Source: a virus. From it: DNA of 64,000 nt. The position numbers and the translations under genes are program-made. Location of the stretch: the IMG/VR virus record IMGVR_UViG_3300037755_000757, positions 952-64,951 of that record. One strand, 5' to 3'. A model generated the notes under the pieces. It saw only the letters and a list, made by a program, of their open reading frames with translations. It ran no database searches and had not been told where the DNA came from. Below, in pieces: positions 778 to 62,119 of this stretch; position 1 is the first letter of the stretch; every line of letters begins with the position of its first letter.

Positions 778-889
778 GTGGCAATTTCGCCACAGCATGA
801 AAAAAGAAAAATAAATTATCGGTGTGGCAGATTCGCCACTGTTGCCCAAGAGACGCACTGCGGCGGATCGGCACCACCTTGGGCGATCC

Positions 890-1750
890 GGAAATTGTGT
901 CCAAATCATGTCCAAAATAAGTTGAAAATGTGTCCAAAATCTTTTGTCCAGGTTGTATACAATCTCTCCAAATGTTTGAGTGTGGCTGATTCGCAACACT
1001 AATATATAAGGAAGATTGTATACAATTCTCCTTATATATCAGTGTGGTATTTATGCAACAAAAATGATTACGGAAGATTGTATACAATCGGGACTAATAT
1101 ATTAGTGTGTCTTTCTTGCAACACTAAACATTTATGAAGATTGTATACAATCGGTCCCAAACATTTTTGTTGCAAAAATACAACACTAATATATAAGGAA
1201 GATTGTATACAATCTCTCCAAATGTTTGAGTGTGGCGAATCAGCAACACTAATCTTTAGTCCGGATTGTATACATGACTGATATGTTGTATATCTGCAAC
1301 AGTAATCTTTGGTCAGGATTGTATGCAAGATTATGTCCAAATTGTGTCCAATTCAAGGCAAAACTGTGTCCAAAATCTTTTGGCTAGACACTACATCTAG
1401 TAGGCAAAGTCTAGTCAGACACTATATGTAATATGATCCAACATTGTTGTATTTTTGCAACAGTGGTCAACTCTTGGGCTGTGGCATTTCTGCAACACAA
1501 ATCATTTGGATCGATTGTATGCAAGATTGTGTCCAAAATAAGTTGAAAATGTGTCCAAAATCTTTTGTCCAGATTGTATACAATCTCGTGTGAGTTGCAT
1601 TTCGGCCACAGTATCATTTCTGCAACGATGTGGCGAAAGAGCAACTGTGGCAGAAAGAGCACTGTTGTGAATCGGCAACTGTGGCTCTTTCGCAACGATG
1701 TGGTATTTGAGCAACTGTGGCAGATCTGCAACTGTGTCATTTCTGCAACA
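890..1750. repeat. non-coding phased repeat region: GATTGTATACAATC palindromes every 62-63 bp, interleaved TGTKGC-N6-GCAACA palindromes, 17 bp tandem array, TGTCCAAA modules, 58 bp direct repeat (909-966/1530-1587)
   Basis: Read directly; palindrome starts at 951, 1014, 1076, 1139, 1201, 1264, then 1317, 1513, 1572. Confidence 0.9.
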
Positions 1751-1784
1751 GACCGAGAGAAAGAGGGTCATTCTTTCGGAGAAT

Positions 1785-2230
1785 GAGATCGTCCGTCTTC
1801 CATTTTTGGACGGTCCGTCTTCCATTTTTTGTCTAACAACCAGTAAAAGATTACGGTTATTGATAGGACGTGTACTGTTTATTAATACGAGAGCCTTCCA
1901 ACTTCCATTACGGCTGTGGATAGGTGGGGGCCGTTGGACCCTCTTTTGTGGTAAAATAGTACCACTGACAGAAGAATTGTCTGTAATGTTAACGTTAACA
2001 GTGATATGTTATATATCAGTCTTGTCACTATAATTCAGTCATGTTAACGTTAACACTGATATGTTGTATATCAGTTGATGTGGTAGGAGAATACCACTGA
2101 TGCACAAATACCACATGAAAGATCTTTCATTCTGTTGCAAAAATGACACAGAATGGATCTTTCATGGAGTCATGCAGAGATGGTCAGTCTCGTTTTCACA
2201 GTGAGATTGTCCGTCTTCCATTTTCCAAAA
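1785..2230. repeat. second repeat block: GTCCGTCTTCCATTTT x3, TGTTAACGTTAACA x2, ACTGATAT-N5-ATATCAGT, GTGGTA-N6-TACCAC x2
   Basis: Copies near 1790, 1814, 2208; 1987, 2042; 1949, 2080. Confidence 0.75.
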
Positions 2231-2277
2231 CGAAAAATGTTCAGCGTTTTTCGACCAAAATTTTCAGGAAATTTTGA

Positions 2278-3124: not shown

Positions 3125-3130
3125 CCAACA

Positions 3131-4432: not shown

Positions 4433-4459
4433 AGGAGACCAATCGCAAAACTGTCGGGG

Positions 4460-17522: not shown

Positions 17523-19553
17523 TTATCTTCCAAATTCGACGGTGTAGCCGCGATAAGTGTCTGGTCCCGTCGTTTCGACCACGACCTCATTTTTCTGGGT
17601 AGAGGAGAAACCGATGCCCGATAACTGCTGATCAGTTACCGCGCATCGGGTCTTATCCCCCAGAATTTCGAAGACCTTCCTGTGCTTGTTCAGGTCAGGT
17701 CTCAGGAATTCGTTGTATATTCCTCTCACTGGGAGGGGATTGCTGCATCCTTCAAGAACAAAGAACCAGTGTTTATTTCCAACAGGACTATCCCAATGGT
17801 TGGGGCTGAGAATAACGCTGTTAACCCGAACGTAATTCTGCGTTTTTAGCCCCCACTTCTCCTTGGGCGAACTACCAAAGATCACATGTTCACCCGGCTT
17901 GACTTCGACGACTCGCCTGTCTCTGACGATCACCGTAGCCACCTGAACGTCTCTGTCAACAATCTTCTCATATCTGAAACTGTGGATCCCTAAATCAGAC
18001 TCAATCTCCACCTCAAACCCAGGACTCGTACTCTCTCGCTGTCGATACTGATTCACCCAGATTTTGTACGTTCCGTCCTTGGTCAGTTGAGGCCACCTGA
18101 CATTCTCGACTGGTTCTCTGGTGACACCGGTTCCAGCATTCATGTCAACGTCAAGCAATCCATGTTTCGACCCATAGTAGATATGACGGCCGTCTGGCTC
18201 CATGACATGGATATCCAGATCGTCGTAGTTGGTCCACGTCAGGCTGACTCTCAGACTGACGTCATCTACTCGACCGCCAGCCTTTTTCACTCTTTCTTTA
18301 ATTGAGTCAGCAACGTTCCCATCATAGGACCACGCGAACCCATTGTTCCACTTGAACAGTGGGGTCGCGTGCTCATGCATAGGAGCCGTAATGCTAGCGA
18401 AATTGCCCAGGAGGGCATTATCCAGGAACAGGTGCAATCCGGTCGTACCAGGAAGAACATCGGAAATGAACTGGTCAATGCCGATCTTCTTCGTATCCTT
18501 GTCTTTTGGCCGAGCAGGTTTCACTTCCTCCATGAGGAGGTCTTGTATTGCGTCCTGGAGAGACGGGCGGACTGCACCATCAACATACAAGACGTTGTTC
18601 ACGGACACGTCACCGAAACGAGCATGTCTCCTTGACAGGCTCGGTTCCAGTTCTAACTCACGAATGGTTTTCATAGCCTGATCAACCATGCTCTTCGTAA
18701 TCAGAGACTTTGATCGCTTATAGTTGGTCGGTGCGACCTTGGACTCGTATAGCTTTACCGCCTTCTCTATATCCATGCCTTCCGATAAGTCTTGAACCAG
18801 CGTGCCAATCGCCGAATTCTTGAACCTTGCGGCAGAGCTACCGATATACGACCAAGTCGCTAACTTTCTGGGATGACCAGCATTTATGCCGAGGAGTACG
18901 GTCTGAACGCGAAGGAACTCCATCACGGGGCGAAGAAATTCTTGTCCCCGATAAATCGCGTTGTCCTCGATCAGATCAACAACGGTGTTAACCGCGTCTG
19001 GTGTGAACTCGTGCACAGATCTCCACAGAACGTCGAACGCTGTCCTGGCCTCACCCCGGCGAGCCTCAGCCATGTGATCAAGAAACTGAGACGGGGTAGC
19101 CACGTGGAAGTGATCCCAGCGTCGGACATTACCATCTATCATTTCTCTTGTGACTTCTGCACCATGATTGTGCTCCTTGGTCACGAAGATGTCTCGGATC
19201 TCGGCTGACTTGACGAATTCGGATAGCGCGTTGGCAACTGCCTGATAAGCGTCAGGCAGTCCCACAACATCCCAAACGGAGGCCATGGCTCCGTTCTGTA
19301 TTGCCACAACATTGCCGATCCGCTTAACGAACTGCCGACAGCATGAACAGTCGTGACAGGTTCGCACTCGAAATACTTGATTTGTTCCCTCCGGGAAAGA
19401 ACTCAAGTATTTATCCCATACCTCATCACGATCTATGTCAACAACGAATAGATGGTCGACCGACATCGTGTCAAACTGCCGCCTCACAGCAGCAGAAAAC
19501 AGGTGAAACTGACTGGTCACATCATAATCCTTCTTTGATATAGGCGGTCCCAC
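17523..19553 (-). CDS. large conserved phage protein with YfaP/DUF2135-like domain
   Basis: 'CHDCSCCRQF' N-terminus; 'RVSLTWTNYDDLDIHV...LDVDMNAG...PVENV'. Confidence 0.75.
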   Translation of the reverse strand: MGPPISKKDYDVTSQFHLFSAAVRRQFDTMSVDHLFVVDIDRDEVWDKYLSSFPEGTNQVFRVRTCHDCSCCRQFVKRIGNVVAIQNGAMASVWDVVGLPDAYQAVANALSEFVKSAEIRDIFVTKEHNHGAEVTREMIDGNVRRWDHFHVATPSQFLDHMAEARRGEARTAFDVLWRSVHEFTPDAVNTVVDLIEDNAIYRGQEFLRPVMEFLRVQTVLLGINAGHPRKLATWSYIGSSAARFKNSAIGTLVQDLSEGMDIEKAVKLYESKVAPTNYKRSKSLITKSMVDQAMKTIRELELEPSLSRRHARFGDVSVNNVLYVDGAVRPSLQDAIQDLLMEEVKPARPKDKDTKKIGIDQFISDVLPGTTGLHLFLDNALLGNFASITAPMHEHATPLFKWNNGFAWSYDGNVADSIKERVKKAGGRVDDVSLRVSLTWTNYDDLDIHVMEPDGRHIYYGSKHGLLDVDMNAGTGVTREPVENVRWPQLTKDGTYKIWVNQYRQRESTSPGFEVEIESDLGIHSFRYEKIVDRDVQVATVIVRDRRVVEVKPGEHVIFGSSPKEKWGLKTQNYVRVNSVILSPNHWDSPVGNKHWFFVLEGCSNPLPVRGIYNEFLRPDLNKHRKVFEILGDKTRCAVTDQQLSGIGFSSTQKNEVVVETTGPDTYRGYTVEFGR

Positions 19554-27341: not shown

Positions 27342-29693
27342 TCAAAATGGGGTTTTCTTTTTCTGGCTGTTTATAAACTGTATGTCTTCCCAGCTTGATA
27401 AACCGTGCGCCTGTTTCCAAGAATCACGACATTCTTGCAAAGTTCCGAACTGATAGAAATATTTTCTGCCAGTCTTTTTATACACTCTGCCAGCGTCAAC
27501 TTCCTCGTAGTCTGTCGGCTTCTGAACTCGCCCAAGGTGCGGGACAACACGCTTCAGGAAGCGACCGAGAGAAGTCTGGTTGCCTCTCTTAGAGATCTTC
27601 CAGTTGTCAGCGTACGAAATGAAGTCGTCGACAATCGTATCCACCATGACCTCCTCATTCCAATCATCATGATCCGATATCAGCCTTCCTTCTTGCAGCT
27701 TGTTGAACCACCATTCTTCTTCAACGTTCAGGCTTAAGAGCTTCTGTTCCATCAGAGCATCTGTCTGTGGTATGTCTCTGACCTCGTACCCTTCCAGATC
27801 TATGCTTTGAAGATAGTACAAGAGAGCTTCGCAACCCCCGTTGTCCATCTGCTTTATCATGTTTCCAAAGTAAACAGAGTCCTGAATCTTATTGTCAGAA
27901 ACCTCCAGAACGAGGTAGCGTCTTTCGTCACCAGATGCACGAATTACGTGAGGATCGTTCGCAGCCATTATAAGATGGATATAGCTGCGAGATGGTTCAA
28001 CGTCCAGACCCTTGTGCTCGATAGGTATGAACTTTTCTGTGATGAGCATCTTGAGAACTGACTCATGCTTTCTGTCGCCAGCGTAGAACGCCTCGTCAGC
28101 AAACAGCAAAGATACGTCACGAAGATGAGCGTTGAACTTGCCTACAAGATGTTCAGAGTTAGAAATTTGCATGTAGTGTCTTCCGAATAGTCGCCCGAAG
28201 ATTGTGGCGACTATGGACTTCCCAACACCCTTCTTTCCTCTGAGAACTATGGCTGTCTCGCCGTGAGTGTCTGGCTGCTGAACACACCGAGCCATCCATC
28301 TGATGAGATACCAGTAGACTTCCTTGCTTCCAGAACAGACATTGTTCTCTAAGTGATCCAGATACAGAGAACAGTCACCGGGTTTCGACAACACCGCGAA
28401 TCCTCGCCACAGATTGTACAGTCCCGGTTCTTCCTTCCCTGGAGAGAATCTCATGTAGTCATACTGCCTTCTGTACTGATGGTTCAGCCACCACTTGCCC
28501 AAGGGGATGGTGACGGACGCTCCGTCCTTGTTCTCACCGATCTTCACTTTCTGATTGTTGTAGCGATTCCCGATGTCTGCGAATGAGGATATCGTGACCC
28601 TGGACCTGTTGAGGCTTTCGTCGTACTCTTCCTGAATAATGCGACACTTTCCTCCAATGCTGCCGATGACTGCGTGCCTCTCATTCATCTGCATCAGGTG
28701 AGGACTGACGCCGTGTTCCTTGGCTTTTTTAATCTGCCGTATAGCGTATCGTTTCGGGTTTTTCTGCTCTATGACAGACTCAGAAATACCGAACTTCTCG
28801 TTCGTGATGATCCCGTATATTATGTCGTCAGGAACACCGATCTCCACCAACCGGCAGACCGATCTCCACAGCCACGCAGACCGACTGTTATCGCCCTTGA
28901 GCCTTATGTCCGGGTCTCTCCCTTGGGCTATTGAGATGCGAAGAGAGTCGTCAGCATTGTATCCGTCAAGAACATCCAGGTCGTGAACTAGTTGAGGATC
29001 CTCCGACAGATCAACTTCTATTCCGAACCCTGTATCCTTTTTCTCCTCTAAGTTTTGAATATCTCCGGCTGGTTTGAAGTCCGAAAGTTCGTACTTCAAG
29101 TCCTCAAACTTCAGAGCTACAGCTTTTCTTTTCGTTCTTCCCTTCTTCTGTTTCTTTGCGTCCGGAATATTGGTCGTTCCTGGGAGACGCATTATCCGAT
29201 CTATGTTGTGGCAATTGTCACCGCCGAAGACCTGCTCGAGTCTCCTGTTGTATGCCTCAAATTCTTCGCAAAGCTGAACACGCCCGTCAACTATCACAGG
29301 CGTCTTTAGCTTCCAAAACGCCTGATAACCGCCACCAGAGTCAATCACCACGGTTGGTTCAGGAATGCCTTCTGGTAGTTCCCCCATCAGAAGAGACAGA
29401 ATGCGACCACGTTCTTTGCCTATATCGGCCCCTTCTTTAGGGTCGATATCCACATGCAGCCAGTCCCCGGCCAGCATGACTTCTTTCATAGGCTTCTTGT
29501 TAACAGAACTAATTGTTCTGTTAACTGTAAAATAGATATTGCGAATACCCTCGTGCTCGCTGACAAAATTGTCAACAAGCGCGAGGTCATCGAAAGTTTT
29601 CGTAATTATTGACTGCTTGTCAAGACTTATTGCCGTAAGAATCCACGGACCATCCGGTCTCCACTTGCTAAGAAATTCCCCTGCTTCCCCCAC
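27342..29693 (-). CDS. primase-helicase (RepB-type primase N-terminus + DUF5906/SF3 helicase)
   Basis: 'WLHVDID...VIDSGGGYQAFW...RIMRLPGT'; Walker A 'GKKGVGKS', Walker B 'LFADEA'. Confidence 0.9.
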   Translation of the reverse strand: MGEAGEFLSKWRPDGPWILTAISLDKQSIITKTFDDLALVDNFVSEHEGIRNIYFTVNRTISSVNKKPMKEVMLAGDWLHVDIDPKEGADIGKERGRILSLLMGELPEGIPEPTVVIDSGGGYQAFWKLKTPVIVDGRVQLCEEFEAYNRRLEQVFGGDNCHNIDRIMRLPGTTNIPDAKKQKKGRTKRKAVALKFEDLKYELSDFKPAGDIQNLEEKKDTGFGIEVDLSEDPQLVHDLDVLDGYNADDSLRISIAQGRDPDIRLKGDNSRSAWLWRSVCRLVEIGVPDDIIYGIITNEKFGISESVIEQKNPKRYAIRQIKKAKEHGVSPHLMQMNERHAVIGSIGGKCRIIQEEYDESLNRSRVTISSFADIGNRYNNQKVKIGENKDGASVTIPLGKWWLNHQYRRQYDYMRFSPGKEEPGLYNLWRGFAVLSKPGDCSLYLDHLENNVCSGSKEVYWYLIRWMARCVQQPDTHGETAIVLRGKKGVGKSIVATIFGRLFGRHYMQISNSEHLVGKFNAHLRDVSLLFADEAFYAGDRKHESVLKMLITEKFIPIEHKGLDVEPSRSYIHLIMAANDPHVIRASGDERRYLVLEVSDNKIQDSVYFGNMIKQMDNGGCEALLYYLQSIDLEGYEVRDIPQTDALMEQKLLSLNVEEEWWFNKLQEGRLISDHDDWNEEVMVDTIVDDFISYADNWKISKRGNQTSLGRFLKRVVPHLGRVQKPTDYEEVDAGRVYKKTGRKYFYQFGTLQECRDSWKQAHGLSSWEDIQFINSQKKKTPF

Positions 29694-29694
29694 T

Positions 29695-30111
29695 TCAGCA
29701 CTCCCAGAACCAAATCAGTCTCTCACAGCTAACTATGCCGCATTCCATCTGACGAATCCAGTTGCGACTGAGACCAGACTCTGCAGAAAGTTTTTCCTGG
29801 GTCCACCCACAACGTCTACGATAGAGCATGCATCGTTCGTAATCAAGTAAGAACATGACCTTTGGTTCTGGGATATCAGGAAATTCCCGTGTTCCTTTCT
29901 CAAGCATCACGTAACTATTTCTCGTAATGCCGAGACGGTCAGCGGCCTGCTGCTGAGTTTCCTTTGATCTTCTTCTACTTATAAGAAACTTCTCGTGGCG
30001 TTCCAGTGCTTTCTCATCCAGTCCATCAGTACGGGACCGTTCAGCCCCTTCATGTGGAGAAGACAATTCTCGAACATCTCCGGTTTCGTCATGTTCCCTA
30101 ACTTCTGACAC
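29695..30111 (-). CDS. tandem two-HTH (XRE) regulator
   Basis: 'TQQQAADRLGITRNSYVMLEKG' and 'WTQEKLSAESGLSRNWIRQMECG'. Confidence 0.8.
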   Translation of the reverse strand: MSEVREHDETGDVRELSSPHEGAERSRTDGLDEKALERHEKFLISRRRSKETQQQAADRLGITRNSYVMLEKGTREFPDIPEPKVMFLLDYERCMLYRRRCGWTQEKLSAESGLSRNWIRQMECGIVSCERLIWFWEC

Positions 30112-31844: not shown

Positions 31845-33900
31845 TTTTCAGGTTTCCCCAGTTTGGTCCATACTCAGCATCAACCTTGAACGGAACCAGA
31901 GGTTTCGCGTAAGGAAGAATACAGTCACGCATTATTTCCGCCATCCGCAGAACTTCTTTCGGATCTTGGCAACTCGCGTTAGCTTCGTCGTGAACTTGCA
32001 ACTGAAGATAGTGACCAGCCTTGTCAATCTCGATCAAGGCCAGTTTCATCTGATCCGCAGACGAACCCTGTATAACTCTGTTGAGAGCCTTGTGTGTCCA
32101 ATCGTAGGATCCGTCTTCTCGAGTGGCGAAATGTAGTCTTCTGCCCAAAACCGTTCGGACAAATCCGACGCTTTCGGCTCTGTCCGAAGCTGCTCTTGCG
32201 AGCTTTCGCACGTAAGGGACATTTTCGTCGAAGCCGTCGAGAACGGCCTGTCCCTCCACGCCAGCAACTTCTCGGAAACTACCTTTTCCAAGATCTTGCC
32301 TAGCGTTCCAAGCTTCTCCTCTGGTTTCAAAATAGTAGGACTCCTTCTCTCTACCCCACCCTACTGTGAGTCTCCAGCGCGTTGGTAAGCCTAGATCACG
32401 ACACAGTTTTGGACCGCCTTCCCCGTAGCATATGCCCAAAAATATGTTCTTGCACGCCGCGCGTTTCACCTTGTAGTCGCCCTTTTCCATAGCGTCTACG
32501 GCCTCATCTCCGTGCACGAGGCGTGTCATCATGTCGTGGTTGTCGGCGTCAGGGTCGTTAACGTATCTTTGAGCAGCTTCCTTGGCCCTCGGTAAATCCA
32601 GGACAGCCGCGAAATGTGTGGTCCATCTGGGCTCCTGTTGGGAGTAATCGCAGCACCCCCACACAGAATCCGGTTCAGCAACGTAGATCTGCCTCCACAT
32701 TCCGGCCACGTCAGGGTCTCGGTCTTTGCTTGGCTGCTGCTGAAGATTTGGGTCAACAGCCGAAAGGCGGCCGAAACGGACGCCTTTCTGTTCTCCTTTT
32801 TCGTCTTCCCTTGCGATTTGGTTGAAGGTGCAATGTATTCTTCCATTGATCATGTAACGTTCAATTGATGCCACGAATGTGGTTCTGATCTTGTCGAGCT
32901 TTCTCGCCCGACGAATAGCTGCCGGAACGGGATGGTCGATTCCTTCGAGAAAGGAGGCGTCGATGTTAGGAAGACCGGTCTTGGGTGTTCTTCCAACCTT
33001 AATACCGATTGCTTCGAGTGCAGGAGCGACTGCATCAGCTTTGAATAAGTCTCCGAGTCCAATTTTGACGGAAGTGGCATCTGTAATTTTCCTCAGCTCT
33101 TTCATCTGCTCTGTCAGTGACCAAGCAGCAATCTGGGACAATCTGTCGGTATCTATGAGAACGCCGCGCTGACGCATCTTGACCAGCACAGGAAGCACCC
33201 TGGACTCAACTTCCCATATTTGTCGCAGACCTAGTCCCTCAATCTTCTCCTCCTGTCGTCGCAGAATTTCGAGGGGAGACGTGACGTCTCTTTCCGCGTA
33301 TCCTCCCACATATTTAGCGTGAAGTCTCCACAATCCTTTCTTTGGGTGAACCCCTGCCTGATGCGCTGCTCTCTCAAGCAGTTCCTCATCCTTTGCTTCA
33401 ACTCCCCATCTCTCACCAATGTTCTTAAGACTGAAGCTCTGGTGAAGCTCGTAAATCAGCGGATCTGCGACCTGGACATCTCGGAAAACAGCGTCAGAGT
33501 TAAAGATAATTCCATCAGTTGCCGCCCAATCAATGTCATAATTGAGATTGGCTCCTACGATTTCACCATCAAACTTTGCGCACTGCTCGCCAAGATACGC
33601 AATCACTTCCTGGGCAGGAAGATTACCGCCGCCCTCGTGACGATATGGAAGATAGTAAGATGGTCCTCCGTCAATAGCAAACGACCATCCTACCGCGTAT
33701 CCCTCGCGCCTACATCCTGGGCCGAGAGTCGTGAGATGTGGATCATAAGTTTCCACGTCAATGGCTACCCGCTTAGCATTCGCCCAGGAGGGGAGCTGGC
33801 TAACCGCCAACGCCGTCCAGTCCGAAGGAACTTCGAACATGCCTAGCTGAAGAGCGCTTCCGTCAGACGCGTCATATTTTCTGCTCTTCCGAACTGCCAT
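31837..33900 (-). CDS. polA: family A DNA polymerase with 3'-5' exonuclease
   Basis: 'AIDVET', motif A 'CCDYSQQEPR', motif B 'KNIFLGICYG', motif C 'LQVHDE'. Confidence 0.95.
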   Translation of the reverse strand: MAVRKSRKYDASDGSALQLGMFEVPSDWTALAVSQLPSWANAKRVAIDVETYDPHLTTLGPGCRREGYAVGWSFAIDGGPSYYLPYRHEGGGNLPAQEVIAYLGEQCAKFDGEIVGANLNYDIDWAATDGIIFNSDAVFRDVQVADPLIYELHQSFSLKNIGERWGVEAKDEELLERAAHQAGVHPKKGLWRLHAKYVGGYAERDVTSPLEILRRQEEKIEGLGLRQIWEVESRVLPVLVKMRQRGVLIDTDRLSQIAAWSLTEQMKELRKITDATSVKIGLGDLFKADAVAPALEAIGIKVGRTPKTGLPNIDASFLEGIDHPVPAAIRRARKLDKIRTTFVASIERYMINGRIHCTFNQIAREDEKGEQKGVRFGRLSAVDPNLQQQPSKDRDPDVAGMWRQIYVAEPDSVWGCCDYSQQEPRWTTHFAAVLDLPRAKEAAQRYVNDPDADNHDMMTRLVHGDEAVDAMEKGDYKVKRAACKNIFLGICYGEGGPKLCRDLGLPTRWRLTVGWGREKESYYFETRGEAWNARQDLGKGSFREVAGVEGQAVLDGFDENVPYVRKLARAASDRAESVGFVRTVLGRRLHFATREDGSYDWTHKALNRVIQGSSADQMKLALIEIDKAGHYLQLQVHDEANASCQDPKEVLRMAEIMRDCILPYAKPLVPFKVDAEYGPNWGNLKNA

Positions 33901-34366
33901 CTACTTCTCCACACCCTCTTCCAACGCTTCCTTCGTCATCTTTCTTGACGAACTCGTAAAACGGTATCCAACCTTTCGGACAATGGAAACCCCAAACACG
34001 AAAACGTGGTCCCGTGATGAACAACGTTCTCGCGTTGCCATGCGGAACCACCAGTCGGTGAGCGAACTTGCCATTCCGGAACACCCACCTCCCTGGGCGA
34101 ATAACACGGACGGCCTCATAGTCTCCGTCTAGGTAGTGCTCAATAAGCACTCCTTTCAAGCAGAGGGATAAACTCCACCAAGGATGATCGTGAAGTGCCC
34201 GATCATCGTCGTCGTGCAGCATCTCATGTCTGTAGATATTGAAGACCTTATTACGAGGAATGACCCACCATCTCTCCATGTAAGGGTCATCCTTGCTTGG
34301 TCCAATAACAAAGTCAGGCTCTCGCGAAACTCTGTCGAATATTTTATTGAGAAATCTGACCAGCAT
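33872..34366 (-). CDS. cupin-fold protein
   Basis: 'LHDHPW...IEH...FAHRL'. Confidence 0.7.
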   Translation of the reverse strand: MLVRFLNKIFDRVSREPDFVIGPSKDDPYMERWWVIPRNKVFNIYRHEMLHDDDDRALHDHPWWSLSLCLKGVLIEHYLDGDYEAVRVIRPGRWVFRNGKFAHRLVVPHGNARTLFITGPRFRVWGFHCPKGWIPFYEFVKKDDEGSVGRGCGEVDGSSEEQKI

Positions 34367-34751
34367 TGGCTATCTCTATCATCTCATCAATCATGTTTCG
34401 GATAATTTGTAGATCGCGAACATCAGCCCAACGAGTCAGAGCCACGCATATTCCTATCTCCCGTGGCTCTAGAGAATTGTGGTTGGCGAATTTCTTGATG
34501 CAGTGGTCAACAATATCCGGGGACACTATCTGCTTGCTGACGCCACCACCGATGAAAACCTCCTGAAGTTTCGCCGCGAAGTGAGCAGCTTTTTGAAGAT
34601 CTTGTACACCGTTCTTCTTTCGCCACCGACAGACATACTTACTGATCTGACCTTCCAGATATCCAAATCCGACATCATGGACAAGATCCCAATGCTGATA
34701 TTCACAAGCATAGTGGGTTCCCCCCACCTGTGTTTCATTCGCTAATGTCAT
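34344..34751 (-). CDS. DUF3310-family protein
   Basis: 'QVGGTHY...QHWD...KYVCRWRKKNGVQDLQKA'. Confidence 0.85.
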   Translation of the reverse strand: MTLANETQVGGTHYACEYQHWDLVHDVGFGYLEGQISKYVCRWRKKNGVQDLQKAAHFAAKLQEVFIGGGVSKQIVSPDIVDHCIKKFANHNSLEPREIGICVALTRWADVRDLQIIRNMIDEMIEIANAGQISQ

Positions 34752-35283
34752 CGCTCAACTCCGGTAAATATTCCCAGTCTGCATGATAAGATTCATATAT
34801 CAGTTTTCTGGTATTCCAAGGTATTTTGTCCTTATTCTTATCAAACCATAAACCTATTCTGCTATGCATCCTTTTCAAGTTAGTGTTGCCAAGAGCAATT
34901 TGATCTTTGCAGAAATAGTAAAGCTCTAGCAGATCAATAGCCTTTACGGTCCACTTCCAGTATTCATCTTGAGGAGTATTTGGAAAGTTGAGACCGTGCA
35001 TGAGACCGGCTTCGACTTCGTCAAGCTTTTCGCTATCAATCAAACCGAACCACTTGCTCGTAGCCGGAATATCACCGGTGGAGCGTTCCGGCTGGTCGTG
35101 CCCGATAATGTGCCACAGCACATCGACAGGAGCGTCAGGTTCAACCTCTCTCAGAATACACAGCATCCCGTATGTGTGAAAACCGTTATTGTACGAACCA
35201 AGAATAGGCTCCCTGTGGCATCTCTCCACTATGGAAGCTTCGCGCATGTACTTGATTCTCTTTAAGGGCGTATCTAGGAGCAT
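34735..35283 (-). CDS. HD-domain 5'-deoxynucleotidase (YfbR-like, degenerate)
   Basis: 'VERCH...GFHTY...IIGHDQPERSTGDIP...KAIDLLE'. Confidence 0.75.
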   Translation of the reverse strand: MLLDTPLKRIKYMREASIVERCHREPILGSYNNGFHTYGMLCILREVEPDAPVDVLWHIIGHDQPERSTGDIPATSKWFGLIDSEKLDEVEAGLMHGLNFPNTPQDEYWKWTVKAIDLLELYYFCKDQIALGNTNLKRMHSRIGLWFDKNKDKIPWNTRKLIYESYHADWEYLPELSDDISE

Positions 35284-39007: not shown

Positions 39008-39683
39008 TCTTACTCGCCTTCTTAAAATAGATTACTGGTCGTCCGTTCGGCTTAACTCTAACGAATTCTGGCCACAGCGCTCTCAGTTCTTCAACATCCT
39101 GAAGAACATCCTCTCTCCAGTCCGAGCATCCACCCGGAGCGCCCTCCTTGTCATCCTGGGCGTAATCAGTGAGAACGGCTGTCTTCCCGCCGCGAGTTAT
39201 GACCTGAAGATGGAAGTCGTGATCCTCCCCTGTTTCCAGTCGAAAGCTCGGTTTCGGCTGTGGCAGTTTGTCGCGATTTATGACCATCACATGAAATATT
39301 TTGGAGAACTCTTTCATTAGTGGGGGTGCCGTGTTAATCATAAACCTAGGATGAATTCCTGTCAAAGCGTATCTGTTGCTCACCTCGTTCAAGCGACTTA
39401 TCAGCGTGCTTGTCGCGAACATATTAGTCAGACCACCTATGGACAGCTTACGAAAGAACCGCAAATCGTCGTCCATTATGGCGAACTTTGACTCTGAAGC
39501 TCTGTCCAAGATTAGCTGTCTCTTGGCTCTGATCTTTTCATCGGTAGTCTCAATCCAATCCCCAGAGTAATCCGGGGGCAGATCTTCACGCCTGCACACG
39601 AACGTTATGTCAGCAACTTCCTTGAAGAAGTCGTAGGTCAACTGCTGATACGGGCGAGACCGAGTCGGGATGTATATTCTCAT
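38961..39683 (-). CDS. GT-A fold glycosyltransferase, TAGT/GREB1/base-J-GT-like
   Basis: 'IYIPTRSRP...KRQLIL...FAIMDDD...EDHDF...GGCS'. Confidence 0.7.
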   Translation of the reverse strand: MRIYIPTRSRPYQQLTYDFFKEVADITFVCRREDLPPDYSGDWIETTDEKIRAKRQLILDRASESKFAIMDDDLRFFRKLSIGGLTNMFATSTLISRLNEVSNRYALTGIHPRFMINTAPPLMKEFSKIFHVMVINRDKLPQPKPSFRLETGEDHDFHLQVITRGGKTAVLTDYAQDDKEGAPGGCSDWREDVLQDVEELRALWPEFVRVKPNGRPVIYFKKASKNVQTGSTVLRSDRAD

Positions 39684-40482: not shown

Positions 40483-40884
40483 CTAGTGTTTTCCAAATCT
40501 ACACTCAAAATGCTGCTGTTTAGCTCTTTCAGATCTTCTTTTCCTTTCTTCCGGATCACTAGCTATTTCCTTTGCAGCTTTGCTCATTTTTAGTTTAGTC
40601 TCAGGTTTGTGTTTTCTTTTTGAGGAATGAAGAGATTTATGATCAGGGTCATTCATTAACCGTAGATTATCTAAATCATTGTTTTCTTTATTATCATCTC
40701 TATGATGAACAACTTCCCATCTCTCTAGTTTTCTTCCTAGTTTTTTCTCCATTCTGAGTCTATGCTGCCGAACCCATTTTCCGTTATGAAGTTCCATAAC
40801 ATATCCATGAGTTGAACAAACGTAAGTATCACCCTCATAACACTTACCTCTCCTCTTTCCGGCCATACGAGTTAGCACCCTCAC
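40483..40884 (-). mobile_element. free-standing HNH homing endonuclease (HNH + NUMOD3-like)
   Basis: 'QHRLRME...VVHHRDDNKENNDLDNL'; 'HKPETKLKMSKA'; visibly AT-richer than flanks. Confidence 0.85.
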
Positions 40885-41774
40885 CCTGAACGAAATCTAC
40901 TTCTTGGACGTCCCTGACCAAGCAATACACGCTGATACTTATCCCATTCACAAAGCTGAAACTGTATGTCATGAGGAGCCAACTTACCAAATTCCTCTGG
41001 CCAATAGTCGCCTTGGAAATCGCAAAGATCTCTTATGAGCGAAGCTGCCTTTACCTGAGAAATCTTGGTTCCAGGAGCTTTGGGATCATCATGCCCAAGG
41101 AGGCGGGCCGCGCCGCGCAACGCTCCGGGACCGATCGGGGTGTACAGTAGCCAGTCACTAGGGAAAGAAAAACCATCCACATTGACTGGTCCCCAAAATC
41201 CCGTATACATCGTGTCAAGAACTACTTCCTTGGCCATGAAACCGGTTCCACCAAACCCGACGACATTCTTCATGTGAGCGATAAGATCTTCCCACTTGTT
41301 CGTGGTTTCCACAACATGAATAAGTCCTGACAGAGCGTTAAACAGACCTTTGATGAAATAGTCCACAACAACGTTCTGCTTCGGTGCTGCTATGCCCTGA
41401 TTCGTTATTACGTAGGCTCCAGTGAAAACTCGCTGGCCTTCTGACAAGCGCGTTTTAGCGATGCTTTTGACTCGTTCCGGATCAAATAAAATTGGATCCT
41501 GCCAGCCGATAGCGCGTGCAAATTCGATAGTGCCGAAGTACCGAAACAGCGCGCAGTTCAGGAGTATCTCACTCTTGTCGCTGTTACTGTGGCGAGAGTA
41601 GAAATCTTCGATAAGCTCGCGGCTCGTGCGATCATGCTGGCGACGAACATTGGTGAATTTGTAAGCGGCCAAGATATCATCCTGGGTCCACGGAGCGGGC
41701 GAACCCGCCTCCCTTCGGAGGCGGATCCGTTCCCTTTCAGCCATAAAGCCGAAAAAGTCAGCGGCTTGCCGCAT
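40881..41774 (-). CDS. 5-hmdU DNA kinase (formerly aGPT-Pplase1 family)
   Basis: 'FMAERERI...PWTQDDILAAYKFTNVRRQHDRTS...FRYFG...QLCEWDKY'. Confidence 0.8.
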   Translation of the reverse strand: MRQAADFFGFMAERERIRLRREAGSPAPWTQDDILAAYKFTNVRRQHDRTSRELIEDFYSRHSNSDKSEILLNCALFRYFGTIEFARAIGWQDPILFDPERVKSIAKTRLSEGQRVFTGAYVITNQGIAAPKQNVVVDYFIKGLFNALSGLIHVVETTNKWEDLIAHMKNVVGFGGTGFMAKEVVLDTMYTGFWGPVNVDGFSFPSDWLLYTPIGPGALRGAARLLGHDDPKAPGTKISQVKAASLIRDLCDFQGDYWPEEFGKLAPHDIQFQLCEWDKYQRVLLGQGRPRSRFRSG

Positions 41775-46704: not shown

Positions 46705-47247
46705 TTATTTGTCTTTGATTTTGGTCTTCTTAGAAACGTGAACTCCGAAGAGTTCCATGGGGATTTGTTCGCCAGACTCAAGCTTCTTCCTCGCCCAGGA
46801 GGTCAGGGTCGAGTGGTGGACGGAGTTCTCGCGCGTGTAGACTGGACACTTCGGATTTGAATTAAGAAACTCTTCGAAAGCCTTGGCCTTGTCTTCCTGG
46901 TTCTTGTTAAATTCGATAACGAACTTCTGCTTGACAATAGAGCCAGAATTATGCTCTGCTAGCCATTTCGCCCCCTCGTCCGCCCTGTCCTTGGGCAGCG
47001 AGGCGCGCACCGCGTCACTAATAGTGACCTTGCGTCCATCCGGAAGTTCTGTACTTCCGTTCATACCATCCATGAAATTGGGAATTTCAATTTCGCTGAT
47101 CTGCCGAAGCTTCTTTTTTTCTTCGTCGAGCGCTTCTTCAAGCTCTGCTACTCGCTTCTCTGAAGCTTGCTGTCTGTTAGCCAGTTCCTGCAGAGCGACA
47201 ACCCTATTATGACCGATACCAGCGGTCTCGTACTCGTCGTATGACAT
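46705..47247 (-). CDS. conserved replication-module coiled-coil protein
   Basis: 'EIEIPNFM...LPDGRKV...SVHHSTL' family in YuA-like gene order. Confidence 0.75.
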   Translation of the reverse strand: MSYDEYETAGIGHNRVVALQELANRQQASEKRVAELEEALDEEKKKLRQISEIEIPNFMDGMNGSTELPDGRKVTISDAVRASLPKDRADEGAKWLAEHNSGSIVKQKFVIEFNKNQEDKAKAFEEFLNSNPKCPVYTRENSVHHSTLTSWARKKLESGEQIPMELFGVHVSKKTKIKDK

Positions 47248-59096: not shown

Positions 59097-59097
59097 A

Positions 59098-61686
59098 CTA
59101 TCTCCTTACCGGCCTGACAGAACTTCCGAATCTGCCTCTCATAGAATCATCAAACCGACCACTTGCCAGAGCTCCGTCTACAGCGTCCAGAGTCAACTCT
59201 ATTATCTCTCTTCCGCCGCTGCCGCTTCGGCGTTCCTGCCTGACGTTTGCTCCTGCGTTGTTGTTTACGATGACTGTCGTGCCCCCGCCTGCCTGTTGCC
59301 CAGAGGGAGTAAAGTCAATGCGCTCGCCCGGCGAGGCTTTAGCCACGACGAGTTGACTATCAGGCCCTCCTGAGCCACCAACCGTGATGGAGCCACCGTG
59401 CTGGAATGCCGGTATTCCGGGGATACCGACTCCTCCTCCGAGAGCACCAAGTAGAGGACGCAGCACGACAGCACGAATAAGAATACGAGCAAAGTCGGCC
59501 AGAATACTGTCTGTCAGCGATTTGAAATTGAGTTTGCCTGTCTTGACAAACTCGACAAACACGTCCTCAATACCCTTGAATGCTCCACCAATCGCGTCTG
59601 ACAACTGGGATCCAGTATCAGAAATGGACTTATTGAGTTCAATGAGGCCAGACTGGAACTTCGAGAAAGAGTCATCCTGAGTCTTCAAGAACGTAAGACG
59701 GATATTGTCAAGCTCACGATTAAACTCTTCTACAGTAATCTTTCCGTCTGCAAGTAGAGTGATAAGAGCCCGTTGCTGATTAGCATACTCTTCCGCAGGA
59801 CCACGAAGGTCAGTCAGTATGTCTGACTGAGCTTCTAACTGATAGTTCTCTTCAACCAGACTTGTGATAGCCTGACGCTCTGTGTCAAGAAGCTCGCGCT
59901 TTATCTTCAGCTCAGCATCCTGGATAGCCTTAAGCTTTTCGCGCTCAAGACCTTGAACACGAAGCAGAGCATTCTGGTTCTCCAGTCTGCGAAGAATATC
60001 TGCAACTTTTTCGGCACCCTTGGGAGGACGATCTGGTCTCTCACCAACGCGCCCAAGATCCACTTCCGTGGTTGTTGTGAACCCTGACCTGCGAGCTCTG
60101 CGAATAGCCTCCTGCCCAAACTGATCAAGAGCATCGCCAACCTCACCGACAAAGTCTCTCTTGAGAGCGTCTGTGAAACCTTTGTTGAACTCTCCCGCAA
60201 AATCGCTACCAGCCCCGGAAACTTCACCTTTGAAGCTTTCCAGATTAACTTTCACATCGTTCAGCGACTCTCCGAATACTCTTCCAAGACCCGCCCTCTC
60301 TGCGAGATTGTCTATACCGCTGAATAGAGAGGCGATAGCGTCAATGATAGCGTTGATCGCATTCTGAGTGATATCGATCAACTCGTTGAATGCAACGACA
60401 AACACATCTTTGAGAACAGGGCCAAGATTATCGAATGTCAGAACAATAGCATCTCTTGACCCAATGAACAGGCCGATTAAAGAGTTTAACGCGGACTTCG
60501 CGATAAAGCCCAGGAGGGTGAAAAACACCGTCGCCGCTCCGCCGATCCGATCCCACACAAGCAGAGCAGTGCCCAGGAGAAGCTGGAAGCCCTCGGTAAT
60601 CTTTGTCAGGACTGGTTCTGCTATTTCAACGAACAGACCAAACGCCTCGGAAGCCGCGTCTCTGAGACTGACCAATCCGTCCTCGGTTATCTTTATTTCC
60701 TTGCCGAAAGTGGAGATGAATCCTATCGCAGCGCCGATACCAGCGATCAGCAGAACAAGCGGATTTGCCAGAAGTGTGAGCAAAGCGGCAGAAGCAAACC
60801 GTATCGCTGCGCCGAGGAAAAAGAAGTTTCTCGCCAAAAGTCCTAAAGACAGACCAGCCAAGGCTCCTGTCAGAGTTAGAACAGATCCTACCAGAACGTC
60901 CATGTTATGGGCGACAGAAATTATCGCTCTGGCAACCGACTCGCTCGCGCCCGTAGCGTCATCGACCGCGTCAACCAGAGTCAGCCATTCCGCGTTAAAG
61001 ACGTTGAAAGCCTGAGCAATCGTCGGGATAGTCTGAGCAAACTTTTCCGCAATCTCTACTCTGGCTTCCCTGAAAGCTTTTAGAACAGTCTCACCAGTGA
61101 GTACGCCAGCTCGGCCCATCTCGCGCAGTTCACCACGAGTAGCGCCAAGACTCTTTGCAATAATATCCGCGACAAATGGCAATTGCTCTAAGACTGAACG
61201 GAGCTCGTCTCCGGACAGCCTGTTCGACGCTAAGCCCTGTCCTAGCTGAACGAGCGCAGCGTTAGCCTCTCGGGCAGACGCGCCAGAGAGAATAACCGCC
61301 TGATTCAGTGACTCTGTGAACTGAAGTGTCTCGGACTGTGCGATACCCAACTCTCTGATCGAGAGTGCGACTCTGGCGTAAACGTCAGCAGTTGAGTTAA
61401 ACTCAGATCTCGTATCACGAGCCACGCGAAACAGTTCGGCCTGGATTTGGTTAAGCTCTTCTGCAGAATCAGAAACGAGACGAATGCGGTTCTCGTAGCT
61501 GGTCAGAGAGTCAACTGTCTGCTGAATCGATCGCACGAGTCCAGCCGCACCCAGAACGAAAAGTGCATTCTGTAGGATGCGCAGACCGCGTGTCGCTCTG
61601 TTCGCACTTTCAACGATCTGACCAAGCTGACGAGCAACCGTTCTTGCGCCAGTCTGGCGAACACCGATGTTGATATTGTTAGCCAC
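59098..61686 (-). CDS. tape measure protein (862 aa)
   Basis: Tape-measure domain 'QLGQGLASNRLSGDELRSVLEQ'; C-terminal lambda-like segment. Confidence 0.92.
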   Translation of the reverse strand: MANNINIGVRQTGARTVARQLGQIVESANRATRGLRILQNALFVLGAAGLVRSIQQTVDSLTSYENRIRLVSDSAEELNQIQAELFRVARDTRSEFNSTADVYARVALSIRELGIAQSETLQFTESLNQAVILSGASAREANAALVQLGQGLASNRLSGDELRSVLEQLPFVADIIAKSLGATRGELREMGRAGVLTGETVLKAFREARVEIAEKFAQTIPTIAQAFNVFNAEWLTLVDAVDDATGASESVARAIISVAHNMDVLVGSVLTLTGALAGLSLGLLARNFFFLGAAIRFASAALLTLLANPLVLLIAGIGAAIGFISTFGKEIKITEDGLVSLRDAASEAFGLFVEIAEPVLTKITEGFQLLLGTALLVWDRIGGAATVFFTLLGFIAKSALNSLIGLFIGSRDAIVLTFDNLGPVLKDVFVVAFNELIDITQNAINAIIDAIASLFSGIDNLAERAGLGRVFGESLNDVKVNLESFKGEVSGAGSDFAGEFNKGFTDALKRDFVGEVGDALDQFGQEAIRRARRSGFTTTTEVDLGRVGERPDRPPKGAEKVADILRRLENQNALLRVQGLEREKLKAIQDAELKIKRELLDTERQAITSLVEENYQLEAQSDILTDLRGPAEEYANQQRALITLLADGKITVEEFNRELDNIRLTFLKTQDDSFSKFQSGLIELNKSISDTGSQLSDAIGGAFKGIEDVFVEFVKTGKLNFKSLTDSILADFARILIRAVVLRPLLGALGGGVGIPGIPAFQHGGSITVGGSGGPDSQLVVAKASPGERIDFTPSGQQAGGGTTVIVNNNAGANVRQERRSGSGGREIIELTLDAVDGALASGRFDDSMRGRFGSSVRPVRR

Positions 61687-62119
61687 GGATTATCAACCTC
61701 GCGGTGGTGACAAGACGACGAGCTCGTATGAGAGAGGTGTTTACCCAATCTCTTGGCTGTTGCAGAGAGTGACCGTTTCTCAGCTTCTCCAGATAAGGAA
61801 TAGAGTTGGATATGTAGATAGTCTGGCCTTCGCGAACCTGGGCGATCACTGCTCGCCCAGCCCCTATAGCCGCGCTCGCGTTAGCAGTCTCACCAATCCC
61901 AAGATGTCGACCAGGAGCGTAAGCAGGAATGACCCCGGTGGTCGGAGCATTCAGGCTCACTCGCCAGTTACTTCTGGCGACACCTTTGTCGACAGGAGTT
62001 CCACGCACTAAATCTTCTAATGCAGTGATCGCAACTCTGCGAGTGAGTAGATCTGATCTCTCAACAACGCCCCTAGCGACTCTCCTCATGTAGTTGGCAA
62101 ATCGCTGGAACGCCATCAC
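61679..62119 (-). CDS. HK97 gp10-like tail completion protein
   Basis: 'TPVDKGVARSNW...IYISNSIPYLEKL'. Confidence 0.8.
   Translation of the reverse strand: MMAFQRFANYMRRVARGVVERSDLLTRRVAITALEDLVRGTPVDKGVARSNWRVSLNAPTTGVIPAYAPGRHLGIGETANASAAIGAGRAVIAQVREGQTIYISNSIPYLEKLRNGHSLQQPRDWVNTSLIRARRLVTTARLIIRG

What the first reader, a model, noticed from the sequence alone, without database searches (positions are those of the whole stretch)
840..61800. Genome-wide dispersed asymmetric motif (Y)YGCCCARGRRG, about one copy per kb, inside genes, both strands, all six frames
Seen by manual scan: the exact 10-mer GCCCAGGAGG occurs 16 times (+ at 12403, 13690, 18405, 25484, 27160, 30621, 33782, 44117, 46793, 48430; reverse at 5221, 7780, 13221, 43220, 53266, 57736). 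GCCCAAGGAG occurs 12 times (+ at 15613, 38690, 41093, 43151, 49520, 50420; reverse at 4058, 5721, 9647, 10358, 17859, 24161). Under equal base frequencies about 0.1 copy of each is expected. The core GCCCARG occurs roughly 70 times (about 33 +, 37 -) against about 16 expected. It is translated in every frame (LPKE, AQE, RPGE; LLG, PPG, SWA), so selection is on the DNA, not the protein. Orientation is unrelated to transcription and spacing is fairly even. Inference: a dispersed binding or processing site, e.g. for a phage nucleoid/condensing protein, Chi-like recombination signals, programmed nicks (T5/phiKMV precedent), stoperator-like sites, or targeting of DNA modification (one strand is T-free, the other T-rich).
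Basis: partly seen in the sequence, partly recalled or inferred. Interest (0 to 1): 0.85.

Follow-up and report, generated by a model that had tools for sequence, protein, structure and literature searches.

The report
Family-wide GCCCARG word in hypermodified-thymine phages
The short DNA word GCCCARG is written about once per kilobase, on both strands and through every reading frame, into this 77.6-kb phage and into all its relatives that I tested, whatever their host, so it is a real phage-lineage DNA signal whose reader and function are still unknown.

Summary
The window holds 17 GCCCAGGAGG, 12 GCCCAAGGAG and 73 GCCCARG. Dinucleotide shuffles give 0.09, 0.12 and 12.

In the whole 77,652-bp genome, where every gene is on the minus strand, there are 84 core sites against 39 after synonymous-codon shuffling. 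All six frames are enriched.

New here: GCCCA[AG]G is the first or a top-16 (mostly top-4) enriched 7-mer, by the same null, in nine related genomes that make up six further lineages:
- three marine IMG/VR contigs
- Pseudomonas phages Ab18, M6 and PaSz-9
- Bordetella phage CN1
- sewage phage Simon
- alphaproteobacterial phage PhiJL001

It is not enriched in three unrelated Pseudomonas phages, a ViI-like phage, Xoo-sp2 or cyanophage Pam3.

The sites are close to Poisson-spaced. Each is only weakly conserved, and they sit wherever the protein sequence allows. What is kept is the number of sites, not their places.

Disfavoured: host Chi, stoperators, one-strand nick motifs and VSP-type repair bias.

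Best guess (about 0.3): the word is the binding site of a lineage-specific phage protein. The best candidate is the tandem-HTH protein next to the primase-helicase gene.

No description turned up in the papers I could search. This scan has noted similar dispersed words before, but only in crAss-like phages.

The parts
844..61843 (.). Dispersed family of 73 GCCCA[AG]G sites in the window (84 in the whole genome).

Consensus in this phage: T-Y-GCCCA-(A)-GGAG-(G), followed by about 12 nt that are G-rich and T-poor on the motif strand.

Plus-strand sites, given by their first base: 844, 2389, 9997, 12403, 13690, 14224, 15613, 16195, 18405, 20228, 21866, 24249, 25484, 27098, 27160, 27530, 28497, 30621, 33782, 35648, 36292, 38690, 41093, 43151, 44117, 44976, 46793, 48430, 49520, 50420, 54578, 57656, 60051, 60508, 60571.

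Minus-strand sites, given by their highest coordinate: 884, 1479, 4067, 5230, 5730, 7311, 7789, 8517, 9656, 10056, 10367, 11136, 13230, 15539, 17114, 17868, 20007, 20282, 21815, 24170, 25710, 28928, 30439, 33615, 33722, 34098, 37198, 39161, 42161, 43229, 43897, 46194, 46996, 48692, 51204, 53275, 57745, 61843.
   Evidence: Positions. Logo. Enrichment. Flank composition: T is 11-13% against 24-26% background in both orientations.
33609..33788 (.). Densest local group: three sites within 180 bp at the 5' end of the DNA polymerase I gene (33615 minus, 33722 minus, 33782 plus).
   Evidence: Two of the three recur in relatives because they lie on the conserved peptides S-W-A and G-P-G. In L001 the same peptide region carries the word on the other strand.
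29695..30111 (-). Candidate reader: a 138-aa single-chain protein with two XRE-type helix-turn-helix units. Its stop codon lies one base from the start of the primase-helicase gene.
   Evidence: Pfam finds HTH_3 and HTH_31 twice. The internal repeat with RRR...Q...G..R motifs is seen. AlphaFold gives pLDDT above 90 for residues 40-138, folded as two three-helix units. Each unit resembles Cro, C-protein or SinR domains; no solved chain matches the whole protein. The protein is restricted to this phage family, 81 records. It is present in every genome with the word and absent from Pam3 and Xoo-sp2.
27342..29693 (-). Primase-helicase, 783 aa. A second candidate reader or partner.
   Evidence: PHROG DNA primase, 1e-72. 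Pfam finds DUF5906 (SF3-type NTPase) and a marginal RepB' primase N-terminal domain, 24.1 bits against a cut-off of 24.3.
40881..41774 (-). Protein of the 5-hmdU DNA kinase family, part of the thymidine-hypermodification cluster. A third candidate reader.
   Evidence: Pfam HMUDK_hel, 1e-37. A thymidylate-synthase homologue lies at 35283-36290, a radical SAM enzyme at 38000-39007, a TAGT-like glycosyltransferase at 38961-39683 and an FkbM methyltransferase at 37282-38010.
34344..34751 (-). 135-aa protein (phrog_5839, with weak similarity to nucleotide kinases). Its presence also matches that of the word.
   Evidence: It is present in every genome with the word that I tested, and was not detected in Pam3, Xoo-sp2 or the controls.

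Best explanation
GCCCARG is a DNA-level 'family word' of the Mesyanzhinovviridae-like siphophages, which make hypermodified thymidine. This 77.6-kb sediment phage is a distant, larger member of that group. Here the word is extended to TY-GCCCA-(A)-GGAG-(G), with a G-rich, T-poor 3' flank.

Shown:
- The word is kept at 1-3 copies per kb on both strands by a force acting on synonymous sites.
- The force acts in all six frames.
- Placement is close to random and single sites are only weakly constrained. What is kept is the number of sites, not their places.
- The word follows the phage lineage across Pseudomonas, Bordetella, an alphaproteobacterial host and unknown aquatic hosts.
- It does not follow the host, the packaging and structural module, or thymidine hypermodification in general.

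Inferred:
- It is the recognition site of a phage-encoded, sequence-specific DNA-binding protein.
- The best candidate is the single-chain tandem-HTH protein at 29695-30111, translationally coupled to the primase-helicase gene. Two unlike HTH units in one chain fit an asymmetric two-part site (GCCCA plus GGAG, spaced by 0 or 1 base).
- Roughly one site per 2 kb on each strand is the scale of an Okazaki fragment. The protein may therefore mark or organise replicating phage DNA, for example by recruiting the primase-helicase.
For: Enrichment over nulls.

First or among the top 16 (mostly top 4) enriched 7-mers in nine related genomes that make up six further lineages (observed/expected):
- L001 29/8, L004 23/7, L005 18/5
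- Ab18 138/69
- Simon 132/69
- CN1 91/51 for GCCCAGG and 49/22 for GCCCAAG
- M6 61/37 and PaSz-9 67/37
- PhiJL001 26/13
. A tenth contig, L108, gives weaker support: its top 7-mer is CCCAAGG at 12/3.3, while GCCCAGG ranks 12th and GCCCAAG 64th.

Not enriched in the unrelated Pseudomonas phages F116 and phiKMV, and only mildly in D3112 (z 0.5-3.6). Absent from a ViI-like Kuttervirus and from Xoo-sp2. Only z 2.8 in Pam3.

Gene presence across genomes: Pam3 keeps the primase, polymerase, helicases, RNR, TS-like and HMUDK-like genes but lacks the tandem HTH and the word. Xoo-sp2 keeps TerL but lacks both.

Pseudomonas Chi is GCTGGCGC (PMC12315714). Five proteobacterial genomes carry GCCCARGRRG at 0.01-0.02 per kb, the same as a control word, against 0.61 per kb here.

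No single-substitution neighbour of the word is depleted in the way biased repair would predict.

Motif sites are more conserved than matched windows in all nine close-pair comparisons, for example 0.92 against 0.86 and 0.40 against 0.26.

HTH structure and family restriction.
Against: No binding data exist. The link to the HTH protein rests on two related genomes that lack the word (Pam3 and Xoo-sp2), and the genomes that carry it are phylogenetically non-independent.

Pam3 has its own top 7-mer, CCCGAGC (56/19). It resembles GCCCRRG, so a reader that Pam3 does keep, such as the primase-helicase or the kinase, may simply have drifted in specificity.

The HTH protein could instead serve the nine phage-specific promoters known in YuA (PMC10914365), or the palindrome arrays at 951-1750 of this window.

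The weak constraint on single sites is also what a neutral drive would give.
Confidence: 0.3

Rival explanations
1. The word is a priming or loading site read directly by the RepB'-like primase / SF3 helicase fusion. It marks where lagging-strand primers start or where the helicase loads. A long recognition word would have to be enriched to give one start per Okazaki-fragment length on either strand.
For: Density per strand is about 1 per 0.7-1.9 kb. RepB' of RSF1010 is a sequence-specific primase (my own knowledge, not tested here). The N-terminal RepB_primase hit is marginal. The T-poor, G-rich flank on the motif strand would suit reading of one strand in a genome with bulky thymine adducts. 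Pam3's CCCGAGC could be a drifted specificity.
Against: Pam3 has a 44% identical primase but no GCCCARG enrichment. The Pfam hit is just below the cut-off. No polarity switch is seen in the relatives. Known phage primases read three bases.
Confidence: 0.15
2. The word is a targeting or loading site of the thymidine-hypermodification machinery, that is, the kinase with its TerS-like helical DNA-binding domain. Alternatively it is a site whose T in the complementary C-Y-T-G-G-G-C must carry, or must lack, the adduct.
For: Every genome with the word encodes the TS-like hydroxymethylase and an HMUDK-family protein. The T of the complement lies in a TG context, which is the preferred context of hypermodification in M6, ViI and W-14 (PMC6449724). 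The literature states that conversion is sequence-specific (PMC8989533).
Against: A ViI-like phage with the kinase shows no such word. Pam3 has the pathway but not the word. Up to half of all T are modified in M6 and ViI, far more than about 100 sites can explain. A target does not need to be over-represented.
Confidence: 0.1
3. The sites are programmed single-strand interruptions (nicks) made at the word on either strand.
For: Nick-associated words conserved across a phage family are known: WACTRTGAC in 61 tf-like phages (PMC11780129). Ab18 encodes a DNA ligase.
Against: Known nick words lie on one strand only, at about 9-13 per genome, clustered toward one side. Here there are 84-167 per genome, equally on both strands. 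That many nicks on both strands, some 40-90 bp apart, would fragment the DNA. No nickase was identified among the roughly 40 window proteins scanned.
Confidence: 0.06
4. The word is read by a conserved host factor: a Chi-like signal, a signal for a translocase such as FtsK, a topoisomerase site, or a target or decoy of a host defence system.
For: Over-represented asymmetric words in phages can be host Chi (PMC12315714). Strong sites in this genome show end polarity: the first six are all minus and the last seven all plus, Mann-Whitney p = 0.003.
Against: The Pseudomonas Chi is a different word, and it is neither abundant nor clearly one-oriented in Ab18 and M6. The word is the same across gamma-, beta- and alphaproteobacterial hosts. 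Three other Pseudomonas phages lack it. No polarity is seen in relatives. The family packages by headful from permuted genomes (PMC11946847). A homologue of Pam3 gp33 (Pfam DUF7307) is present; gp33 is labelled a host-nuclease inhibitor in the Pam3 record, an annotation I did not test.
Confidence: 0.07
5. The word is a neutral by-product of a context-specific mutation or repair bias, analogous to very-short-patch repair, in a lineage that replicates with 5-hmdU. It has no function of its own.
For: Sites occupy whatever positions the protein allows. Single sites are only weakly conserved.
Against: No transition neighbour of the word is depleted. A specific 7-10 bp context enriched 2-18 fold per frame needs a sequence-specific reader anyway. 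The word is conserved across lineages with 50-64% GC, while ViI-like hmU phages lack it.
Confidence: 0.1

Closest known systems
DNA uptake sequences (USS of Pasteurellaceae, DUS of Neisseriaceae)
   Same: An asymmetric 9-12 bp word at about 1 per kb, on both strands, inside genes in all frames, placed where the protein tolerates it. Number is maintained rather than position.
   Different: Uptake sequences belong to bacterial chromosomes and are driven by competence-mediated uptake. Here the carrier is a virulent phage lineage, and no uptake step is known that could drive the word.
Chi sites, including Chi-rich lambdoid and Pseudomonas phages (PMC12315714)
   Same: An over-represented asymmetric G-rich word, the most frequent octamer of the phage genome, at about one per 1-2 kb.
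   Different: Chi is the host's word (GCTGGTGG in E. coli, GCTGGCGC in Pseudomonas). It is almost wholly one-oriented (20:3, 32:0) and clustered near one end. GCCCARG is host-independent, strand-symmetric and dispersed.
Stoperators of Cluster A mycobacteriophages (my own knowledge, not tested here)
   Same: An asymmetric site of about 13 bp, tens of copies across the genome, bound by a phage HTH repressor as a monomer.
   Different: Stoperators have one orientation relative to transcription, lie mostly between genes, and occur in temperate phages. Here the ratio is 43:41, about 77% of sites lie inside genes, and the family is virulent.
Nick-associated words of tf-like, phiKMV-like and T5 phages (PMC11780129)
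   Same: A short word conserved across a whole phage family even though the genomes are not alike at the nucleotide level. It lies mostly inside genes and its function is unknown.
   Different: Those words lie on one strand only, at about 9-13 copies, clustered on one side. The present word is ten times denser and on both strands.
Dispersed GC-rich words of crAss-like phages, noted earlier by this scan (e1-1937818 and others)
   Same: A family-wide word private to the phage lineage, with lineage 'dialects', written through genes, with an unknown reader.
   Different: Those words are 13-20 nt long, occur about 15-35 times, and are evenly spaced and strand-alternating. Here the core is 7 bp, spacing is random, density is about ten times higher, and the phage family is unrelated.

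Membership tests
Chi (RecBCD/AddAB hotspot) | The word equals the host's Chi. | tested here: not met
   For the Pseudomonas-infecting relatives the host Chi is GCTGGCGC (PMC12315714). That word occurs only 11+7 times in Ab18 and 4+5 in M6. The host of the window phage is unknown.
Chi (RecBCD/AddAB hotspot) | Strong single orientation relative to the DNA end at which the enzyme enters. | tested here: not met
   43 plus to 41 minus. Both strands are enriched alike over the codon null: 2.8 fold on the sense strand and 3.5 fold on the antisense strand. There is weak end polarity in this genome only.
Stoperators | One orientation relative to transcription. | tested here: not met
   All genes are on the minus strand, yet the sites split 43:41.
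Stoperators | Bound by the phage repressor. | not testable with these tools
   A candidate tandem-HTH protein exists. There is no binding assay.
Nick-associated motifs | The word is confined to one strand, with a physical nick at each copy. | tested here: not met
   Both strands carry the word. Nicks themselves cannot be tested, because only contigs of a sediment metagenome hold this DNA.
Architecture-imparting skewed words (KOPS type) | Orientation switches at the origin and terminus. | tested here: inconclusive
   In this genome the strong sites give Mann-Whitney p = 0.003, and the switch falls in the non-coding repeat region. No such pattern is seen in Ab18, CN1, Simon or M6.
Uptake-sequence-like density words | About 1 per kb, both strands, all frames, placed at permissive positions, weak constraint on each site. 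| tested here: met
Uptake-sequence-like density words | Driven by preferential DNA uptake by a competent host. | not testable with these tools
   The carrier is a phage. No analogous step is known.
Sequence-specific thymidine hypermodification target | The word accompanies the 5-hmdU kinase pathway wherever that pathway occurs. | tested here: not met
   A ViI-like Kuttervirus and Pam3 have the pathway but no GCCCARG enrichment.
Mesyanzhinovviridae-like phage (the carrier genome) | Shared, syntenic replication, hypermodification and structural genes. | tested here: met
   31 genes have orthologues at 30-65% amino-acid identity in Ab18, CN1, M6, Simon and the IMG/VR contigs. The genome is larger (77.6 against 56-64 kb) and has a lower GC content (51 against 62-64%).

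The most novel reading that the evidence does not exclude
A family of virulent phages writes a private word into every gene, on both strands. The word directs its own DNA machinery: either as distributed priming or loading sites for a RepB'-like primase-helicase recruited by a single-chain tandem-HTH adaptor, or as a 'self' mark that tells phage DNA from host DNA. This would be a phage-encoded counterpart of Chi or of uptake sequences that does not depend on the host.
Probability: 0.2. Interest if true: 0.85.

Novelty: new variant of a known kind. Interest (0 to 1): 0.7.

Why it matters
Mesyanzhinovviridae (YuA, M6, Ab18, PaMx11 and relatives) are widely isolated, are used in Pseudomonas phage-therapy cocktails, and are the model for thymidine hypermodification. 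If their commonest heptamer is a functional signal, then an unknown step in how these phages handle their DNA has a sequence handle that can be tested directly: by binding assays, by primer, nick and modification mapping, and by synonymous recoding. It also bears on genome engineering, because codon-optimised or recoded phages would lose the word. Together with the crAss-like cases it suggests that lineage-private dispersed DNA words are a recurrent and little-studied feature of phage genomes.

Tried and rejected
1. Codon or codon-pair bias. Rejected: all six frames are enriched over synonymous shuffles.

2. Base or dinucleotide composition. Rejected.

3. Host signature. Three unrelated P. aeruginosa phages are not enriched under the codon null, although low-order Markov models made them look mildly enriched. 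Five proteobacterial genomes are at control level. The true host could not be found: the OMP gene has no close relative in genome contigs, and the best RNR hits are 46-48% identical to alphaproteobacterial and other MAGs. The source is a sediment metagenome.

4. Positional conservation. The raw excess is 91 coincident pairs against 7.4. With the matching tolerance narrowed from ±2 to ±1 alignment columns there are 83 pairs. The excess disappears once amino-acid constraints and the higher site number are allowed for: 13.8 x (256/104.5)^2 = 83.

5. Regular spacing or paired sites. Only a slight excess of gaps of 40-100 bp (103 against 84) and a deficit below 20 bp.

6. VSP-like repair. No neighbour of the word is depleted.

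7. Internal Shine-Dalgarno or nested starts at sense-strand copies. No consistent start codon lies downstream.

8. Replication-linked polarity. Weak in this genome and absent in relatives.

9. Literature. No paper I could search describes the word.

10. The 676-aa protein at 17523-19553 has no Pfam or PDB sequence match.

11. The whole-protein fold search of the HTH model gave only single-domain matches.

Full report
**What the DNA is.** The window is bases 952-64951 of a 77,652-bp viral record. Its 127-bp terminal overlap is the usual sign of a circular assembly. The only public run that holds it is a sediment metagenome.

All 94-98 called genes lie on the minus strand. The annotated genes include:
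- a tape-measure protein and a J-like tail protein, DNA polymerase I, a primase-helicase, SNF2 and Dda-like helicases and a ribonucleotide reductase
- a 5-hmdU DNA kinase-family protein, a thymidylate-synthase homologue and a radical SAM enzyme
- a TAGT-like glycosyltransferase and an FkbM methyltransferase
- a small terminase subunit at 2278-2970

Thirty-one genes have orthologues at 30-65% identity in Pseudomonas phages Ab18 and M6, Bordetella phage CN1, sewage phage Simon and marine IMG/VR contigs, in the same order. The phage is therefore a distant, larger (77.6 against 56-64 kb) and lower-GC (51 against 62-64%) relative of the Mesyanzhinovviridae, whose DNA carries hypermodified thymidine (PMC5889632, PMC8989533).

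**The observation.** The counts are right apart from one missed copy. The words are the commonest 8-, 9- and 10-mers of the window. Aligning the 73 core sites gives T-Y-GCCCA-R-G-R-R-G. The two frequent 10-mers differ by one inserted A between GCCCA and GGAG. On the motif strand the next 12 nt are G-rich and T-poor in both orientations relative to the genes.

Enrichment survives every null model I tried:

| Null | Word | Observed | Expected |
|---|---|---|---|
| Dinucleotide shuffle, window | GCCCARG | 73 | 12.2 |
| Dinucleotide shuffle, window | GCCCAGGAGG | 17 | 0.09 |
| Markov order 2 / order 4, genome | GCCCAGG | 37 | 8.5 / 8.5 |
| Markov order 2 / order 4, genome | GCCCAAG | 47 | 9.1 / 19.7 |
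| Synonymous-codon shuffle, genome | GCCCARG | 84 | 39.3 |
| Codon permutation, genome | GCCCARG | 84 | 35.6 |

Five of the six frames are individually enriched 1.9-6.6 fold; the sixth, at 1.56 fold, is not significant by itself. Spacing is close to random, with a CV of 0.90.

**The word belongs to the lineage.** I applied the same synonymous-shuffle scan of all 7-mers to relatives and controls.

| Genome | Word | Observed/expected | Rank among 7-mers |
|---|---|---|---|
| L001 (marine) | GCCCAAG | 29/8 | first |
| L004 (marine) | GCCCAAG | 23/7 | first |
| L005 (marine) | GCCCAAG | 18/5 | second |
| Ab18 | GCCCAGG | 138/69 | first |
| Simon | GCCCAGG | 132/69 | first |
| CN1 | GCCCAGG; GCCCAAG | 91/51; 49/22 | first; third |
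| M6 | GCCCAGG | 61/37 | z 5.3; not among the six top-ranked |
| PaSz-9 | GCCCAGG | 67/37 | 16th |
| PhiJL001 | GCCCAAG | 26/13 | fourth |
| L108 (new metagenomic lineage) | CCCAAGG | 12/3.3 | first |

The YuA-like and CN1 genomes also favour CGCCCGGG. The shared form is therefore (C)GCCC-R-R-G, with lineage dialects.

There is no clear enrichment in:
- the unrelated P. aeruginosa phages F116, phiKMV and D3112 (z 0.5, 1.7 and 3.0; D3112 ranks tenth only under a low-order Markov model)
- a ViI-like Kuttervirus, which also hypermodifies thymidine
- Xoo-sp2, which shares the terminase and structural genes
- cyanophage Pam3, a myovirus that shares the whole replication and hypermodification module (GCCCAGG rank 187; its own top word is CCCGAGC at 56/19)

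Five proteobacterial genomes hold GCCCARGRRG at 0.01-0.02 per kb, the same as a control word, against 0.61 per kb here.

**How it is maintained.** Sites coincide at orthologous positions far more often than random placement predicts (91 pairs against 7.4). After synonymous shuffling the expectation is 13.8 pairs from 104.5 sites. Scaling by the squared ratio of site numbers gives 83, exactly the count observed at the ±1-column matching tolerance used for this test.

The polymerase alignment shows how this works. The word sits on the peptides S-W-A and G-P-G where the residues allow it, shifts by two codons in L004, and is written on the other strand in L001.

In pairs of genomes 79-97% identical, motif sites are more conserved than phase-matched neighbouring windows in all nine comparisons, but only slightly. 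No single-substitution neighbour of the word is depleted in the way a repair bias would require.

The picture is many redundant sites, each weakly constrained, with turnover. Uptake sequences in bacterial chromosomes show the same pattern.

**What it is not.**
- *Host Chi.* The Pseudomonas Chi is GCTGGCGC. Chi-rich phages carry it almost wholly in one orientation near one end (PMC12315714). Here both strands are enriched alike, and a homologue of Pam3 gp33 is present; the Pam3 record labels gp33 a host-nuclease inhibitor.
- *Stoperators.* These have one orientation relative to transcription.
- *Nick words of tf-like phages.* These lie on one strand at 9-13 copies (PMC11780129).
- *Promoters.* YuA has only nine sites of its phage-specific promoter motif (PMC10914365).
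- *A general companion of thymidine hypermodification.* The ViI-like phage and Pam3 both lack the word. The T of the complementary CYTGGGC does, however, lie in the TG context that hypermodification prefers (PMC6449724).

**Who might read it.** Among genes conserved in the lineage, only two match the word in their presence and absence. One is a 135-aa protein at 34344-34751. The other is the 138-aa protein at 29695-30111.

The second is an internal duplication of an XRE-type HTH. Its model is confident, with pLDDT above 90 over residues 40-138, and shows two three-helix units. No solved whole-chain analogue was found. The protein is found in only 81 phage records, all of this family, and its gene ends one base before the primase-helicase gene. 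Pam3 has an unrelated gene at that position.

A single chain with two unlike HTH units fits an asymmetric two-part site with a one-base spacer variant. This is inference from a small and phylogenetically non-independent sample. The primase-helicase, with its marginal RepB'-like N-terminus, and the kinase with its TerS-like helical domain remain candidates. Pam3's CCCGAGC could be a drifted form of the same specificity.

**Verdict.** Its specific mechanisms are mostly disfavoured or untested.

My committed reading, at about 0.3, is a binding site for a lineage-specific phage protein that serves the phage's own DNA metabolism. I found no description of the word in the searchable literature. This scan has reported analogous but different words in crAss-like phages.

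Noticed in passing
window 951-1264 (and 1592-1750): The palindrome-containing word GATTGTATACAATC is the second most abundant 10-14-mer of the window, with about 12 copies. It lies in the 42% GC non-coding stretch downstream of terS. This region also separates terS from terL by about 6 kb around the assembly junction.
   Followed up: partly
whole genome; strong sites at genome 5018-11318 and 61459-77219: The first six GCCCA(A)GGAG sites are all on the minus strand and the last seven all on the plus strand (Mann-Whitney p = 0.003). The switch falls in the non-coding repeat region. Relatives show no such polarity.
   Followed up: partly
window 17523-19553 (-): A 676-aa protein (phrog_1735, E 2e-231) with no Pfam or PDB sequence match. 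It is shared at 42-47% identity with Ackermannviridae, phiCbK-like, roseophage DSS3_VP1, Zuri, PB119 and a cyanophage. It carries three contradictory annotations in public records.
   Followed up: partly
L103 (Pseudanabaena phage Pam3): Pam3's most enriched 7-mers under the codon null are CCCGAGC (56/19) and a group of HIP1-like words (GGATCGC, CGATCCC). So a cyanophage carries both a private word and what looks like its host's hyper-abundant palindrome.
   Followed up: partly
L017, L106, L013 (M6, PaSz-9, CN1): YuA-like and CN1 genomes have further enriched words: GGGCGTCC (34-36 against 10-12), CGCCCGGG, and TCCTCCGCG / CGCGGAGGA.
   Followed up: no
P0002-P0005; L111, L112: Closer relatives of this phage exist in other metagenomes, with the HTH protein 60-83% identical. 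They are known only from 1-3 kb contigs.
   Followed up: partly
window 46705-47247 (-): A 180-aa ORF that my gene caller missed matches Pfam DUF7307 (Pam3 gp33-like), which is annotated in Pam3 as a host-nuclease inhibitor. It lies between the gp32-like and gp34-like genes, as in Pam3.
   Followed up: partly
L021 (WTCE01000072.1, 48 kb, labelled Crocinitomix MAG): The best genome-contig hit to the phage RNR (46%) lies on a 48-kb contig of a Bacteroidota MAG. It may be a binned phage contig rather than host DNA.
   Followed up: no
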